A DNA stretch of 13,300 nt from Octopus sinensis (Eukaryota). A program made the translations under genes and the position numbers. Shown here piece by piece: positions 2,385 through 13,015 of the stretch (within the stretch, counting starts at the first letter, position 1; every line of letters starts with the position of its first letter). Below the pieces are notes generated by a model. That model did not search any database and was not told where the DNA came from. It saw only the letters and a program-made list of their open reading frames with translations. The DNA lies in contig NW_021826325.1 of NCBI RefSeq assembly GCF_006345805.1, positions 1-13,300 on the forward strand. The letters are read 5' to 3'.

Positions 2385-2722
2385 CACACACACAGAAGAA
2401 CACACATTTACACACACACAAGCACGCACGCGCGCACACACACATGCATACATACACGCACGAACGCGCGCATACAGGCACACACATACACAGACAGGCA
2501 CACGTACACACACAAACACACACACACACAGGTACGCACACGCATACACACACAAACACAAACACTTGCACACACACCACGAGTACGCGCACACAGACAC
2601 GCACACACACATACACACACAAACATATATATATAGAGAGAGAGAGATGGAGAGAGAGAGAAAGAGAGAGAGAGAGAGCCAGGGAGAGAAAGAAGAAAGG
2701 TAGGGAGAGGAGGCGATAGATA
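2385..2722. repeat. Degenerate (CA)n/(CG) then (GA)n microsatellite
   Basis: Directly visible; explains the HTHT/VCVC/ERER ORFs. Confidence 0.95.
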
Positions 2723-2991
2723 GATACATTGATTGATTCATATAGATAAATAAGTGTATATAACGTGCGAGTGAAGAATGGAGTCGGTGATATCACGTTT
2801 ATTCCACTATTTACAAATGCTGCGATAAAATATGGATGACAAGTCACAAAATATGTTGGAAAATAGAAGAAAGCAACGATACTCTCATATCGATGACTTA
2901 ACATAGTTCTATATTTGAGAAGTGAGGAATTCTGTACATTATTTACATTATTTACATTTGACGGATATTTGTCCTCATCTTGTTTGTTGTT

Positions 2992-3037
2992 AACATAACA
3001 TTTCGGCTGATATACCCTTCAGCCTTCATCAGGTGTC
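2992..3037 (-). ncRNA. Minimal type I hammerhead ribozyme motif
   Basis: Minus strand reads GACAC-CUGAUGA-A-GGCUGA-agggUaUa-UCAGCC-GAAA-UG-UU-AUGUU. The CUGAUGA and GAAA core boxes are intact, stem II is a perfect 6 bp, stem III is vestigial, and stem I has 4 pairs plus a core-proximal C-A mismatch. Confidence 0.7.
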
Positions 3038-3087
3038 TTGGGGAAATTTCAAACCTGGCTTCTCATTCCTAAGTTATTTTTCCGATG

Positions 3088-3158
<71 letters not shown>

Positions 3159-3288
3159 TTATTATTATTATATTATTATTATTATTTAGGTCACTGCCTG
3201 GAATCAGACTCGGCAGTGACCTGAATAATAACAACAACAACAACAACAACAGCAACAATAACAATAATAATAATAATAATAATAATAA
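3088..3288. repeat. (CAT)n(TAT)n - central hairpin - (AAC)n(AAT)n, internal to the fold-back element
   Basis: Mirror-image trinucleotide tracts on either side of the 11-bp stem and 13-nt loop at 3188-3222. Confidence 0.9.
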
Positions 3289-4026
3289 ATATGTGACCCG
3301 CAGCAAACAAGCTGATGTTGACCAGAAGCAAACCCATCAGTAGCTACGGAGCTCAGGGCTAAAAGCAGAGAGCGAAGGTTTCATCCTGGCTGCTCAAGAT
3401 CAAAGCCTATTAACCCGGAACTTCCAGGCCAATGTGATGAAAAATGGAGCAGACCCAAAATGCCGATTCTGCAACGACATGATTGAAACAGTGGACCACC
3501 TAATCTCTGGATGTAAAGTCTTAGCACCAGTGGAGTATAAATTAAGACATGACAGAGTTGGCCAATATCTCCACTGGCTAATAAGTCGGCATTACAATAT
3601 CAAAACTGCCGACAAGTTGTATAATCACACCCTGAGGCTGTAACTGAAGGAGAAAATGTAACCATTCTGTGGGACTTTCCAGTACATACAGACCGAACCA
3701 TCAAGGCCAATAAACCAGATATTGTTGTGAAAGACCAAAACAATAAAGTTTGCTTATTGATCGACATGAGCATCCCCTGTGATCATAATATCTCAGCGAA
3801 AGAGTTTGACAAGCTCAGAAAATATAAAGACCTACTCATTGAAATTGAGAAAATGTGGCATCTCAAGGCGGTTACAATACCAGTGATCGTAGGAGCACTA
3901 GGAATGATCAAGAAGGGAACCGAAACTTATATGAGAATGATCCCTGACTTACCATCCCTGCAAGAAGTGCAAAAGATTGTCTTAACTGGTACATCACACG
4001 TATTGAGAAGAGCATTGTCGATGTGA
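3289..4026 (+). pseudogene. Disrupted C-terminus of non-LTR ORF: post-RT region, CCHC zinc knuckle, RHD motif, PD-(D/E)xK endonuclease
   Basis: Reads YVTRSKQADVDQKQTHQ*LRSSGLKAESEGFILAAQDQSLLTRNF...CRFCNDMIETVDHLISGC...RHDRVGQYLHW.... A frameshift at ~3630 continues as PEAVTEGENVTILWDFPVHTDRTIKANKPDIVVKD...CLLIDMSIP...KLRKYKDL...IPVIVGALG...LRRALSM*. One in-frame TAG (3341-3343, probably former TGG) and a 1-nt deletion. Confidence 0.92.
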
Positions 4027-4190
4027 GAACTGTTGCTGCTCATGTATTTTAATTTAACTTTAAAAAAAAAAAATTAACGAACTACTGAGTTTGGTTTAAT
4101 AGCCTACCAATGTATACTATGAGTTTCTTTGCCCTAGGAGTCGGGAAGACACTCGGCAAGAAATGGAAGCAAATTTGAAAGAAGAAAAGA
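3289..4190 (+). mobile_element. 5'-truncated non-LTR retrotransposon with restriction-like endonuclease (R4/Dong clade-like), including 3' UTR
   Basis: Degenerate ORF C-terminus followed by a ~165-bp 3' UTR ending in an A-rich stretch. (AAT)n on both sides. Confidence 0.9.
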
Positions 4191-4229
<39 letters not shown>

Positions 4230-4266
4230 GTAATAGTAATAATAATAATAATAATATTAACAACAA
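4191..4266. repeat. (AAT)n tract (right remnant of the LINE target)
   Basis: Directly visible. Confidence 0.95.
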
Positions 4267-4316
4267 CATCGGAAAAATACGTTAAGTATGAGAACCCAGG
4301 TTCGAAATTTCCCCAG

Positions 4317-4362
4317 GACACCCAATGAAGGCTGGAGAGTACATCAGTCGAAATGTTATGCT
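4317..4362 (+). ncRNA. Degenerate (probably inactive) hammerhead motif in the right arm
   Basis: GACAC-CCAAUGA-A-GGCUG-gagaguacau-CAGUC-GAAA-UGUU-AUGCU. The core CUGAUGA is mutated to CCAAUGA; stem II is retained with a G-U pair. Confidence 0.55.
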
Positions 4363-4585
4363 AACAACAAACAAGATGAGGACAAATATCCGTCAAATGT
4401 AAATAATGTAATTGACTTAATATGTTCTAGATCACGATTTTAATCATCAAACAACGTTTGTAATTATCAAACCACGTCACAATTAATAATTTACAAAGTA
4501 GCTGTTTGCTGTTCTATCCCCTAAATGTATACGGACTTTCGAACAATTCAGCTTCAGGAATATTTGCGTCTTTGTCTTCCCACAG

Positions 4586-5760: not shown

Positions 5761-6043
5761 CGATGTTGATAGTAATAACAACACATGTGAAAGAAGACAA
5801 AATAAAACTCCGGTTTCTTTGATGTGCAGATGCTTTGTCTAGAGGCATGTGATCTATGTAATTCTTACAAGGACAGCATTACTGAACAAAGTTCTTGCGT
5901 GTTATTTTTGCTTGGGGCACTGCATTTAGATATTCTATAAACATGGAAAGTAAAACAGAGTTTTGTATTTGAAAATGGAGAGAAAAAATACATTGGGAGG
6001 GGGGGAGACCATTATAAGAAGACCTAATAATAAGAGGAAAGAA

Positions 6044-6044
6044 A

Positions 6045-6134
<90 letters not shown>

Positions 6135-6145
6135 TAATAATAAAA
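6044..6145. repeat. (AAT)n microsatellite
   Basis: Directly visible. Confidence 0.95.
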
Positions 6146-6625
6146 TAAATGATATGAAAATATTGAAGAAGTGAGACAGATAGTGAAAGACTCTCACGCA
6201 AGTAAATGAGAGAGAAAAATTCACAAATCGATCATTTTCTACTGAAAATACCTTCGAACATTTCAGAAAGTATTTAAAGATTCTTTTTCATCTCTTTTCC
6301 AATTAACCTAAATTGATAACAGCTTCGCAATTATTTGTATCCAAGTAAGGCAATCTTTTCTACATGTAAAGTTATATACCCGTGTGAACATGCAATCTTT
6401 GGTATGTGTATTCGATAGGTTTTATATAATTTTAGTTTGAAAAAAAAAAAAGGAAATTATTTTAGTTGCCGAAACCAACTACGCCATTTATAATATGATG
6501 ATGAGAATTAAGGGGAAAATATTCAACATAAAATTTGAGAAACACAACAAAACAGTTGTAACAGTTCTCGTTAGCGGTTTATCATCTAACTAGTGTTGGT
6601 TTAATAGGATCACTTCTAAACTACA

Positions 6626-7648: not shown

Positions 7649-7840
7649 TTTACTCTTCATGTATGTTGGTCACACGTGTAATTGGTAACAATTGCATTTT
7701 AAAATTTATACTGATAAATCTTCCTCGACATTCGGTAGAAACAAATGATATTCATATAAATTCGTGTGTTTTTCTCTCACACATCGCACGCACTGCTCTT
7801 TATATTTTCATACTTTCCTTCGTTAATATTACATGTAGGT

Positions 7841-8250
7841 AAGATGGCGAGGTGGCAGAAACGTTAGCATGCAGGGCAAAATGCTTAGTGATAGTTCGTC
7901 TGTCTTTACGTTCTGAGTTCAAATTCCGTCGAGGTCGACTTTGCCTTTCATCTTTTCGGAGTCGATAAATTAAGTACCAGTTACGCACGGGGGTCGAATC
8001 TAATCGACTTAATCCGTTTGTCTGTCCTTGTTTGTCCTCTCTGTGTTTAGCCCCTTGTGGGTAGTAAAGAAATAGGTATTTCATCTGTCTTTACGTTCTG
8101 AGTTCAAATTCAGTCGAGATCGACTTTGCCTTTCATCCTTTCGGAGTCGATAAATTAAGTACCAGTATCGTACTAAGGTCGATCTAACCGACTGGCTCCC
8201 TCCCACAAAATTTCGGGCCTTGTGCTTAGAGTAGAAAAAAAGAAGAAAAA
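7841..8250 (+). mobile_element. tRNA-derived SINE family 1, dimeric form (head + core + tail A + second headless core + tail B)
   Basis: A-box-like tggcagaaacg; B-box gagttcaaattcc at 7915-7927 and again at ~8100-8111. The core gaggtcgactttgcctttcatc(c/t)tttcggagtcgataaattaagtaccag occurs twice and, from memory, resembles the Meta/Sauria SINE central domain. A-rich end. Confidence 0.85.
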
Positions 8251-8462
8251 AAGGCGGCAAGCTGGCAGATTCGTTAGCATGCCGGGCGAAGTGATCGGCT
8301 GCAGTCATCCGTCTTTACGTGTTCTGAGTTCAAATTCCGCTGAGGTCGACTTTACCTTTCATCCTTTCGGGATCGATACATTATGTATCAATTGCTTACT
8401 GGGATCTAATCGACTGGTCCCTTCCCTCTAAAATTTCGTGCCTCGTTCCTAGAGTAGAAATG
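8251..8462 (+). mobile_element. tRNA-derived SINE family 1, monomer
   Basis: aaggcggcaagctggcagattcgttagc head, B-box at 8326-8338, core, tail ...cctagagtagaaa. Confidence 0.88.
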
Positions 8463-8484
8463 AATATTACATATAGGCCTTTAA

Positions 8485-8702
8485 TGCGGCGAGCTAGCGG
8501 AATCGTTACCGAGCTTGAAAATAACAATGCTAAGCTGCATTTTCTCCGAGTTTAGGTTGCGAGTTCAAATGCCGCCGAGGTAGACTTTGCTATTCCTTAT
8601 TTCTGGGTCGATGAACTAATTACCAGTCGAGCACTGATGTCAATGTAATCGACTTACTACCTCCTCTAAATTTGCTGGCCTTGCGCTGATATTTGAAACC
8701 AA
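8485..8702 (+). mobile_element. tRNA-derived SINE family 1, older copy
   Basis: gcggcgagctagcggaatcgtt head, gagttcaaatgccgccgagg, tail ctggccttgcgctgatatttgaaacc. Confidence 0.8.
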
Positions 8703-8715
8703 TGTTATATAGAAT

Positions 8716-8910
8716 TGGAAGTTGCCAGAATCTTTTGCTCACCGCTAAGCATTTCTTGTCTGTATGTTCTGAGTTCAAATTCCGTCTGAATCGAGGTTGC
8801 TTTTCACCCCTTCGGAGTTCACAACCTAAGTACCAGTCGAGTATTGGGTTCAATGTAATCGACTTACAACCTCCCCCGAAATTTCTGGCCTTGTGCTAAA
8901 ATTTGAAACA
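8716..8910 (+). mobile_element. tRNA-derived SINE family 1, older copy
   Basis: gttctgagttcaaattcc, taagtaccagtcgagtattggg, tail ctggccttgtgctaaaatttgaaac. Confidence 0.8.
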
Positions 8911-8928
8911 GATGCAACATATAAAGAT

Positions 8929-11164: not shown

Positions 11165-11380
11165 GTGTCTGTGTCTGTGTTTGTCCCCCTAGCATTGCTT
11201 GACAACCGATGCTGGTGTGTTTACGTCCCCGTCACTTAGCGGTTCGGCAAAAGAGACCGATAGAATAAGTACTGGGCTTACAAAAGAATAAGTCCCAGGG
11301 TCGAGTTGCCCGATTAAAGGCGGTGCTCCAGCATGGCCGCAGTCAAATGACTGAAACAAGTAAAAGAGAAAAGAGAAAGA
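11165..11380 (+). mobile_element. 3' half of SINE family 2 (5'-truncated)
   Basis: Near-identical to 12405-12615 (ttgacaaccgatgctggtgtgtttacgtccc...gactgaaacaagtaaaa). Ends in (AAAGAG)n. Confidence 0.9.
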
Positions 11381-11513
11381 GATAGTTTAAAGTGTCGCTC
11401 TACTACAATACAGCTTCAAATATATTCTTGTTTATTCTGTTAATTTTAGCATCAATTATTTCATTCTATTTTACACTTAACTGGCGCCGATTTACAATAT
11501 TGTACATCCGAAT

Positions 11514-11728
11514 AAGGCGGCGAGCTGGCAGAATCGTTAGGGCGCTGGGTAAAATACTTAGCAGCATTTCGTCCGTCTTTACGTTCTGAGTTCAATTTCC
11601 ATCGACGTCATCTTTTCTTTTCTTCCTTTCGGGTTCGATAAAATAAGTACCAGTCGAGTACTGGGGTGGATGTAATCGACTTAACACCCTCCCGAAATTT
11701 CCTGGCCTTGAGCCAAAACGTGAAACCG
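11514..11728 (+). mobile_element. tRNA-derived SINE family 1, full-length monomer with TSD
   Basis: aaggcggcgagctggcagaatcgttag head, gagttcaatttcc B box, core and tail. Flanked by atattgtacatccgaat (11497-11513) / atatcatacatccgaat (11729-11745). Confidence 0.92.
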
Positions 11729-12081
11729 ATATCATACATCCGAATTAATATAGATTCTTCATATATAATATCACAATTATCAGGAAAATGAGATATTAAT
11801 GAGAGGACATTAAATCAATGTTTCACTCCTTTGTTTAGTTAGAGAATGTCGAAGTGGGGACAAATCTATCATTCTAGCAATTTAAAATTTCCAGTTCTCT
11901 TGAATTATTGAAAAGTTTCCTTGATTTACGACTAAAATAATTTAGAGGAAAATTGTCAGCACGTCAGGACATTTTTTATGATCCTCTCCAAATTGGGATG
12001 ATTAATTAACAACTCATAAAATAGCCGTCTTCTTGTTTCAGTTTCAAGGTGCTTCTGAAAAGGAGGGGCGAGACATCCGCT

Positions 12082-12212: not shown

Positions 12213-12616
12213 GTGGCTGAGTAGTAATAGCTTGCTTACGAACCACATGGTTCCGGATTCAGTCCCACTGCGTGACACCCTGAGCAAGTGTCTTCTACTA
12301 TAGCCTTGGGCCGACCAAAGTCTTGTGTGTGGATTTAGTAGATGGAAACTATATATATATATATGTATGTATATATATATATATATATATATGAATGTGT
12401 GTGTATGTGTCTGTGTTTGTTCCCCCAACATGACTTGACAACCGATGCTGGTGTGTTTACGTCCCAGTAATTTAGTGGTTCGGCAAAAGGGTCCGATAGA
12501 ATAAGTACTTGGCTTACAAAGAATAAGTCTTGGGATCGATTTGCTCGACTAAAGACGGTGCTCTAGCATGGCCACAGTCAAAAGACTGAAACAAGTAAAA
12601 TTGTAAAGAGAAAGAG
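12213..12616 (+). mobile_element. Near full-length tRNA-derived SINE family 2 (head + CORE-like domain + internal TA/TG microsatellite + 3' tail)
   Basis: A-box-like gtggctgagtagtaa, B-box-like ggattcagtccc, caccctgagcaagtgtcttctact, internal (TA)/(TG) tract at 12350-12410, tail shared with 11165-11380. Confidence 0.88.
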
Positions 12617-12798: not shown

Positions 12799-13015
12799 TC
12801 TTTTATCTTTTATGTGTTTCAATCATGATGGAGCACCGTCAAGAAGGAGAATTTTAGTTTACCTAATGGATCTCAGTGTCTATATTTATCTTTAAACCTG
12901 GTAATCATTCCATCAGCTTCTTTTGCCGAACTGCTATATTACGGGGACGTAAAGACAGCAGATCCGGTTTTAAAGTGGTGGTGGGGGACAAAGGCAGACA
13001 CATTGACACACACAT
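12799..13015 (-). mobile_element. Degenerate 3' half of SINE family 2, inverted orientation
   Basis: tcttttat..tgtttcaatcat..tggagcaccg and ttttgccgaactgctatattacggggacgtaaa...gggggacaaa..cagacaca are reverse complements of blocks in 11165-11380 and 12405-12615. Confidence 0.8.

What the first reader, a model, noticed from the sequence alone, without database searches (positions are those of the whole stretch)
2894..4429. Palindromic, hammerhead-bearing non-autonomous retroelement with Penelope-like architecture
Seen: once the LINE (3289-4190) is removed, a ~600-bp almost perfect palindrome remains, with ~90% identical 145-bp outer arms, mirrored trinucleotide tracts and an 11-bp central stem. 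The left arm has an unpaired ~30-nt extension (2912-2943), and a 17-18-bp degenerate direct repeat flanks the unit. Each arm carries an outward-reading hammerhead motif. Established: Penelope-like elements (PLEs) carry minimal hammerheads in their pseudo-LTRs, often form inverted 5'-truncated pLTR pairs and have a short 3' extension. Inference: this is one insertion of a short non-coding element mobilised by PLE machinery, rather than two chance neighbouring repeats.
Basis: partly seen in the sequence, partly recalled or inferred. Interest (0 to 1): 0.85.

Follow-up and report, generated by a model that had tools for sequence, protein, structure and literature searches.

The report
Inverted Penelope-type pair of octopus repeat
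Two copies of a very abundant short octopus-type repeat, each with a predicted self-cutting RNA motif (intact in one, mutated in the other), sit head-to-head here and were likely inserted in one event by Penelope-type retroelement enzymes: a known layout, in a family I could not find described.

Summary
The inverted arms are 132/146 identical, there is a one-sided tail and a 17-18-bp flanking repeat, and a restriction-like-endonuclease LINE fragment sits in the (AAT)n. Three corrections: the right hammerhead core is mutated; the tail starts at about 2905, inside the left target duplication; and the palindrome is best read as an insertion product, with one arm as the mobile unit.

The arm is a very abundant family (6,583-36,699 contigs per run, 4 of 4 runs), also present in two Octopus bimaculoides gene models. 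Other copies end at two sites about 30 nt apart, the published Penelope-like element (PLE) 'tail' signature. The family-majority sequence is a textbook minimal type I hammerhead. Both arms share a letter seen in only 1-8% of family depth, which favours one event.

Inverted 5'-truncated pairs with tail, target duplication and junction palindrome are already published for PLEs. No autonomous partner was found, no empty site was seen, and the frequency of inverted pairs was not measured. The open lead is weak evidence for a tRNA-like Pol III head, which would make this a PLE-driven SINE.

The parts
2894..2911 (+). Left copy of the putative target-site duplication (18 nt); its last 7 nt also match the family's outer end
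   Evidence: family end table 7
2905..2934 (-). Optional ~30-nt 3' tail of the family, present on the left copy only
   Evidence: loose ends at 2905 versus 2935/2944 in runs X1, X3, X8; P0121 reads through it
2935..2943 (.). 9-nt tandem duplication that the right arm lacks
2943..3088 (-). Left arm (3' body of copy 1, reading outward)
2992..3037 (-). Minimal type I hammerhead with intact core; predicted cut between 2997 and 2996; stem I 4 of 5 pairs
3088..3186 (-). Internal microsatellite of copy 1, (TCA)13(ATT)21 on +; other family copies also continue into such a tract
   Evidence: loose ends behind 3082
3188..3211 (-). 5' end of copy 1; keeps 13 nt more than copy 2, including a decayed B-box-like stretch (weak match)
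3212..3222 (+). 5' end of copy 2; with 3188-3198 it forms the 11-bp junction palindrome
3227..3288 (+). Internal microsatellite of copy 2, left part, (AAC)n(AAT)n
3287..4190 (+). Secondary insertion: 5'-truncated LINE of the R2-like, restriction-like-endonuclease type (zinc knuckle, endonuclease region, 3' UTR; one frameshift near 3628). The name Dong/R4 is recalled, not tested by a tree
4190..4265 (+). Internal microsatellite of copy 2, right part, (AAT)n
4266..4411 (+). Right arm (3' body of copy 2), ending at the family's short end, no tail
4317..4362 (+). Degenerate hammerhead: two core changes (positions U4 and G5), predicted inactive
4413..4429 (+). Right copy of the putative target-site duplication (17 nt)

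Best explanation
This is two 5'-truncated, head-to-head copies of a very abundant short repeat with a predicted hammerhead, likely inserted in one event by the enzymes of an unidentified Penelope-like element and likely interrupted later by a LINE. The mobile unit is inferred to be one arm, read as RNA: a 5' part, an (AAT)n tract, a minimal hammerhead, and a 3' region with two alternative ends 53 and 83 nt past the predicted cut. Inferred mechanism: a PLE RT/GIY-YIG protein nicks both strands 17-18 nt apart. The top-strand 3' end primes cDNA at the outer site, giving the tail (7 nt of the target match the tail end). The bottom-strand end primes at the inner site, without tail. The two cDNAs stop 13 nt apart in the 5' part and are joined, leaving a junction palindrome and a target duplication. 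Fold-back self-priming could leave the same scar. Shown: anatomy, abundance, two ends, shared alleles. Inferred: enzyme, order of events, cleavage, non-autonomy.
For:: 36,699, 23,174, 15,230 and 6,583 contigs laid in 4 of 4 runs. Loose ends with unrelated AT-rich flanks (agreement 0.40-0.45) lie at 2905 and at 2935/2944 in X1, X3 and X8; X9 lists other places but also shows the tail. One X3 contig spans 2715-2951 with no substitutions, so the left junction is real DNA; majority letters give stem I 5/5, an unpaired A after the core, a G-C closing pair and a palindromic ACGU stem III, the features listed in PMC4209133. Among the 40 of 63 variant rows shown, the only one inside CUGANGA is at the free position 7 (3028); both arms carry 2996T, at most 1-8% of family depth, and 3000A (18-47%); both also have CC at 3082-3083 where listed family contigs have one C. 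Target duplication above chance. P0121 (Octopus bimaculoides) reads through the tail. Two of 7 hits with upstream residues (P0137, P0127; a sister family) start with an antisense arm piece joined to a sense piece (0 and 17 of 2,000 shuffles). Published PLE layout: inverted pLTR, 9-bp TSD, optional 31-bp tail, junction palindromes (PMC3846280); two RT start sites bounding the tail and extension of both strands in vitro (PMC11167929); opposite-strand hammerhead pairs 100-700 bp apart (PMC4209133).
Against: No RT or GIY-YIG protein carries the arm's frame: no candidates; none of the 17 hits looks like one (8 scanned with Pfam, the other 9 are 44-75 aa). The arm does not match the Naiad, Chlamys or Hydra consensus files, which include Octopus families (six 10-mers, two chance hits). 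The duplication (17-18 bp) is longer than the 8-10 bp cited for rotifer PLEs. The 7-nt target/tail match differs from the homology-free priming reported in vitro. The majority arm is stop-free over 58 codons (130 of 3,000 shuffles), which also fits the end of an autonomous PLE. The 3' region has no folding signal (z about 0). The shared-allele argument rests on one rare site, and depth sums are not copy counts.
Confidence: 0.62

Rival explanations
1. The two copies are the 3' ends (solo pseudo-LTRs) of an autonomous PLE, heavily 5'-truncated; there is no separate non-autonomous family.
For: The same layout is standard for autonomous PLEs, whose pLTR plus tail holds the first codons of the ORF. 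The majority arm is stop-free over 58 codons (130 of 3,000 shuffles). PLEs cover 6.83% of the O. vulgaris assembly in 190 families.
Against: No RT/EN protein begins with this frame. P0132 and P0130 point to a short non-coding 5' part rather than an ORF end (weak).
Confidence: 0.2
2. The whole palindrome is the mobile unit: a palindromic master or a fold-back/MITE-like element copied as one piece.
For: Near-symmetric arms, shared rare allele, one target duplication around the unit.
Against: The ends are asymmetric (tail on one side), and so is the centre (13 nt on one side). Five of 7 peptide hits with upstream residues show no antisense arm. A long degenerate duplication and a hammerhead are not features of TIR transposons (general knowledge).
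Confidence: 0.08
3. Two independent copies of an ordinary LINE-driven SINE landed back to back, and the flanking repeat is chance.
For: The family is abundant enough for neighbours to occur; the arms differ at 14 sites.
Against: No host DNA lies between the copies; one duplication flanks both; they share a rare allele; the 3' ends are fixed unique sequence, with the simple repeat internal.
Confidence: 0.06

Closest known systems
Insertion units of endonuclease-positive PLEs (Penelope/Poseidon, Neptune, Hydra, Naiad; PMC3846280, PMC8557442, PMC11167929)
   Same: Inverted 5'-truncated copy, optional 30-40-nt tail on one side, target duplication, junction palindrome, hammerhead upstream of the two 3' ends, AT-rich flanks.
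   Different: No ORF here; the unit is about 600 bp with an internal microsatellite; the duplication is longer; no partner element identified.
Dispersed minimal type I hammerheads of metazoans (PMC4209133)
   Same: Same minimal fold with palindromic stem III; opposite-strand pairs 100-700 bp apart were already noted in Schistosoma mansoni.
   Different: Cephalopods are not mentioned in the two parts of four that I read; no tail or target-duplication analysis there.
Animal non-LTR retrozymes (bioRxiv 10.64898/2026.07.22.740005; PMC7761336)
   Same: Short, non-coding, hammerhead-bearing, proposed to depend on PLEs.
   Different: Defined as head-to-tail tandem arrays; this locus is a head-to-head pair. 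Circular RNA not tested.
Schistosoma Sm-alpha / Sj-alpha SINE-like elements (as reviewed in PMC6765202)
   Same: Short repeat with a hammerhead, and a Pol III promoter if the head inferred here is real.
   Different: Those are described as tandem repeats; the passages read report no PLE tail or inverted insertion. The Pol III head here is unproven.
Non-autonomous Chlamys elements such as MRC1 (PMC8557442)
   Same: Non-coding elements with PLE-type ends.
   Different: Green algae; they share 3' sequence with a known autonomous family, which was not found here.

Membership tests
PLE-type insertion | Optional 30-40-nt 3' tail (two alternative 3' ends) | tested here: met
   ends 30 nt apart after removing the 9-nt duplication
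PLE-type insertion | Minimal type I hammerhead, sense, upstream of the 3' end | tested here: met
   sequence and fold only, cleavage not tested; right copy mutated
PLE-type insertion | Inverted 5'-truncated copy with junction palindrome | tested here: met
   at this locus; 2 of 7 peptide hits of a sister family
PLE-type insertion | Target-site duplication around the whole unit | tested here: inconclusive
   above chance, but no empty site seen and longer than published examples
Autonomous PLE | ORF with RT and GIY-YIG endonuclease | tested here: not met
   the only coding remnant is the LINE
Non-autonomous PLE derivative | 3' sequence shared with an autonomous PLE of the same genome | tested here: inconclusive
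   nothing; no host genome or TE library available
Non-LTR retrozyme | Head-to-tail tandem units, each with a hammerhead | tested here: not met
   this locus is head-to-head; a sister family shows three tandem 43-codon units (P0127)
Non-LTR retrozyme | Circular RNA intermediate | not testable with these tools
   no run on record as RNA
tRNA-derived SINE | A and B boxes of a Pol III promoter in a tRNA-like head | tested here: inconclusive
   B-box-like 12-mer at 3211 (2 mismatches; 19 such sites in the window); A-box-compatible peptide in P0130 (201 of 20,000 random 9-mers; 1 of 7 upstream parts)
tRNA-derived SINE | 3' end in poly(A) or a simple repeat shared with a partner LINE | tested here: not met
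   3' ends are two fixed unique sites; the microsatellite is internal
MITE / TIR transposon | Symmetric terminal inverted repeats and a short fixed target duplication | tested here: not met
   one-sided tail and 17-18-bp duplication

The most novel reading that the evidence does not exclude
The family is a tRNA-headed, Pol III-transcribed SINE whose 3' end (hammerhead plus two-site tail) is borrowed from a Penelope-like element rather than a LINE, and it is among the most abundant repeats of octopus genomes: a SINE driven by PLE enzymes. Its many insertions would record strand choice, start-site choice and target stagger of PLE integration at a scale no autonomous PLE offers. Support so far: a B-box-like remnant at the truncation point, upstream peptides in P0130 and P0132, and my recollection (from no call) that octopus copies carry a full tRNA-like head.
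Probability: 0.45. Interest if true: 0.68.

Novelty: new member of a known kind. Interest (0 to 1): 0.4.

Why it matters
The layout itself is known, so the single locus is ordinary. The family matters more. It is present in bulk in four organism labels, none of my ten paper searches found it described with its hammerhead and tail, and SINE and PLE are major repeat classes in octopus (11.6% and 6.83% of O. vulgaris). If it has a tRNA head, part of what is annotated as SINE in octopus would be moved by PLE enzymes. Its insertions would also give a large natural test of an open question: whether head-to-head PLE pairs arise by priming on both strands or by fold-back.

Tried and rejected
No host genome is held, so copies, pairs and empty sites could not be counted. 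Rfam found no hammerhead at E up to 5; the minimal fold was found by script. DNA pattern scans gave nothing real: metagenomes 1 chance hit, viral 0 and 1 chance hit, prokaryote genomes 0 twice. No RNA holder was listed; this is no evidence on expression. Autonomous partner by protein search: none; the two 1,000-aa hits are unrelated repeat proteins. A search for the 5' head in a second frame gave only 4 low-complexity hits. A stem-loop around the RT start sites: folding z about 0; one 9-nt complementarity between the family tail and 2972-2980 remains a lead only. Unequal ageing of the arms (2 versus 7 private changes) is not significant (p 0.18). A second, antisense hammerhead (2 and 1 core mismatches at 3007 + and 4347 -) was set aside as a likely by-product of stem II symmetry. 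Four 15-mer motifs occur in 0 papers. Earlier findings by sequence and by place: none. Not held: Albertin 2015 and Lunse 2017. Repbase, Dfam and the Zenodo library of PMC13282606 could not be seen and may already hold this family under some name.

Full report
Observation. The arms 2943-3088 and 4266-4411 are inverted copies, 132 of 146 identical (E 5e-55). Between them lie (TCA)n(ATT)n, a 35-nt centre with an 11-bp stem and 13-nt spacer, (AAC)n(AAT)n, a 0.9-kb LINE piece and (AAT)n. The LINE matches the C-terminal 245 residues of 1,200-aa RT proteins at 67-71% from 3287 on; for one of these proteins the only solved relatives are R2 proteins. I call it Dong/R4-like from memory of its (TAA)n target; no tree was built. 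The flanking direct repeat (2894-2911, 4413-4429) is matched by 5 of 18,389 random flank pairs, or by 87 of 18,389 when only bases left of 2905 are counted.

Ribozyme. The left arm has an intact minimal type I hammerhead on the minus strand, core at 3032-3026, predicted cut at 2997/2996 (0 of 2,000 shuffles; z -2.3). The right arm has two core changes and no folding signal. Rfam did not report either. With the majority letters, stem I pairs 5 of 5 and stem III is the palindrome ACGU. That form has the unpaired base after position 9, the G-C pair and the palindromic stem III named for PLE hammerheads in PMC4209133. Of the 40 variant rows shown (63 in all), the only one inside CUGANGA is at the free position 7; variants at 2999-3005 fall on CpG sites. 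Cleavage was not tested.

Family. I laid 4 of the 20 holding runs on 2715-3090. They gave 36,699, 23,174, 15,230 and 6,583 contigs (organisms A, B, D, E). These are contigs, not copies, but depth over the arm is several orders above the flank. Listed loose ends with unrelated AT-rich flanks fall at 2905 and at 2935/2944 in X1, X3 and X8, and the tail sequence appears as loose-end consensus in all four runs; 1,030 further loose-end rows were not shown. After removing the 9-nt duplication the two ends are 30 nt apart, 53 and 83 nt past the predicted cut. Inward, other copies also run into an (ATT)n-type tract. One X3 contig spans 2715-2951 without substitutions, so the left junction exists outside this assembly. 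A translated search with the right arm gave 17 hits. Two are Octopus bimaculoides records: P0121, which reads through the tail, and P0130, a dystrobrevin model that starts in this repeat. The family therefore occurs in octopus; that the window is octopus DNA is inferred from this and from recalled SINE families.

One event or two. The copies abut with no host DNA between them, and one duplication flanks both. Both carry 2996T (at most 7.9, 4.2, 2.6 and 1.0% of depth in the four runs) and 3000A (18-47%), and both have CC at 3082-3083 where the listed loose ends show one C. That is one rare site, so it is modest evidence. In a sister family, 2 of 7 hits with upstream residues begin with an antisense arm piece joined to a sense piece (P0137: 0 of 2,000 shuffles; P0127: 17 of 2,000), and P0127 continues in three tandem units. 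No empty site was seen; the stretch laid did not include the right flank.

What the unit is. The centre is asymmetric: copy 1 keeps 13 nt more than copy 2, and the 11-bp stem is the sequence both still share. I read the palindrome as two differently truncated copies, not as a palindromic element. What lies 5' of the truncation is unresolved. The extra bases resemble a decayed B box (2 mismatches to my pattern, 3 to the consensus in PMC8969392; 19 sites in the window match my pattern as well or better). P0132 aligns to the centre's frame and goes on 8 residues further. P0130's first nine residues can encode an A box (201 of 20,000 random 9-mers; 1 of 7 upstream parts). I looked for this because I recall a tRNA-like head on octopus copies; that recollection comes from no call. 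Against non-autonomy, the majority arm is stop-free for 58 codons (130 of 3,000 shuffles), as expected where a pLTR holds the ORF start. But no RT or endonuclease protein carries this frame, and the consensus files of PMC8557442, which include Octopus Naiad and Hydra families, do not match.

Mechanism (inferred). A PLE protein nicks both strands 17-18 nt apart and each 3' end primes cDNA on family RNA, one at the outer and one at the inner start site. The cDNAs grow inward, stop at different points and are joined. This follows the in vitro behaviour of the anole Poseidon protein: cleavage and extension of both strands, two start sites bounding the tail, an AT-rich target. One difference is the 7-nt match between target and tail end here. 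Self-priming, proposed in PMC3846280, would leave the same scar; I put the odds at about 3:2 for two-strand priming. In that in vitro system the hammerhead was not needed for insertion and cut only with protein, so its role here is open. The LINE most likely entered the (AAT)n of copy 2 afterwards.

Comparison and novelty. PMC3846280 describes an inverted pLTR completing the insert, a 9-bp duplication, a 31-bp tail on one inverted pLTR and junction palindromes. PMC8557442 gives the same scheme and non-autonomous derivatives. PMC4209133 notes opposite-strand hammerhead pairs 100-700 bp apart. Retrozymes are proposed PLE dependants but are tandem; Sm-alpha joins a Pol III promoter to a hammerhead. 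The locus therefore works like a PLE insertion, while membership as a non-autonomous PLE derivative lacks its partner. Ten searches found no description of this octopus family with hammerhead and tail, and no tRNA-headed SINE assigned to a PLE partner. Repbase, Dfam, the Zenodo library of PMC13282606, Albertin 2015, Lunse 2017 and Ohshima and Okada 1994 were not seen and may bear on this.

What I read. Main text in large part: PMC11167929 (parts 1-2 of 4), PMC4209133 (1-2 of 4), PMC13282606 (1-2 of 3, plus a supplement search), bioRxiv 10.64898/2026.07.22.740005 (1-3 of 5). Passages only: PMC8557442 (plus supplement parts 1-2 of 59 and a motif search), PMC3846280, PMC6765202, PMC7761336, PMC8969392, PMC8967140, PMC6962438, PMC5753468, PMC5718144, PMC3531059, PMC10886601.

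Verdict. A real feature, probably one PLE-type insertion of a known layout, from a large and apparently undescribed octopus family. Interest 0.4; about 0.68 if the tRNA head is confirmed (probability about 0.45).

Noticed in passing
window 7840-8920 and 11513-11736: Five near-tandem copies (spacing 185-235 nt) and one lone copy of a SINE-like repeat with a clear B-box match.
   Followed up: no
window 11165-11385, 12395-12615, 12883-12988: Three copies of a second interspersed repeat, the last one inverted (pairs I16 and I17).
   Followed up: no
window 6020-6148: A purine-rich stretch running into AATAGT(AAT)n, resembling the 3' junction of the LINE at 4180-4200; possibly a very short 3' end of a related LINE.
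   Followed up: no
window 3007 (+) and 4347 (-): Hammerhead-like core on the antisense strand of each arm with 2 and 1 mismatches and stem I 4/5 and 5/5; probably a by-product of stem II symmetry.
   Followed up: partly
protein P0130: An Octopus bimaculoides dystrobrevin beta gene model whose first 32 or so residues come from this repeat: a possible exonised copy or a mis-annotation.
   Followed up: partly
proteins P0127 and P0137: A sister family on unnamed contigs: antisense arm joined to sense arm, and in P0127 three tandem 43-codon units, a retrozyme-like array with an inverted head.
   Followed up: partly
protein P0125: A piece of a related LINE's RT region reads directly into the arm frame (E 1.4e-8 to P0003), so the two element types are nested elsewhere too.
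   Followed up: partly
window 2972-2980: Nine bases complementary to the family's tail consensus could close a loop around the inner 3' end; the window's own tail has lost the perfect match.
   Followed up: partly
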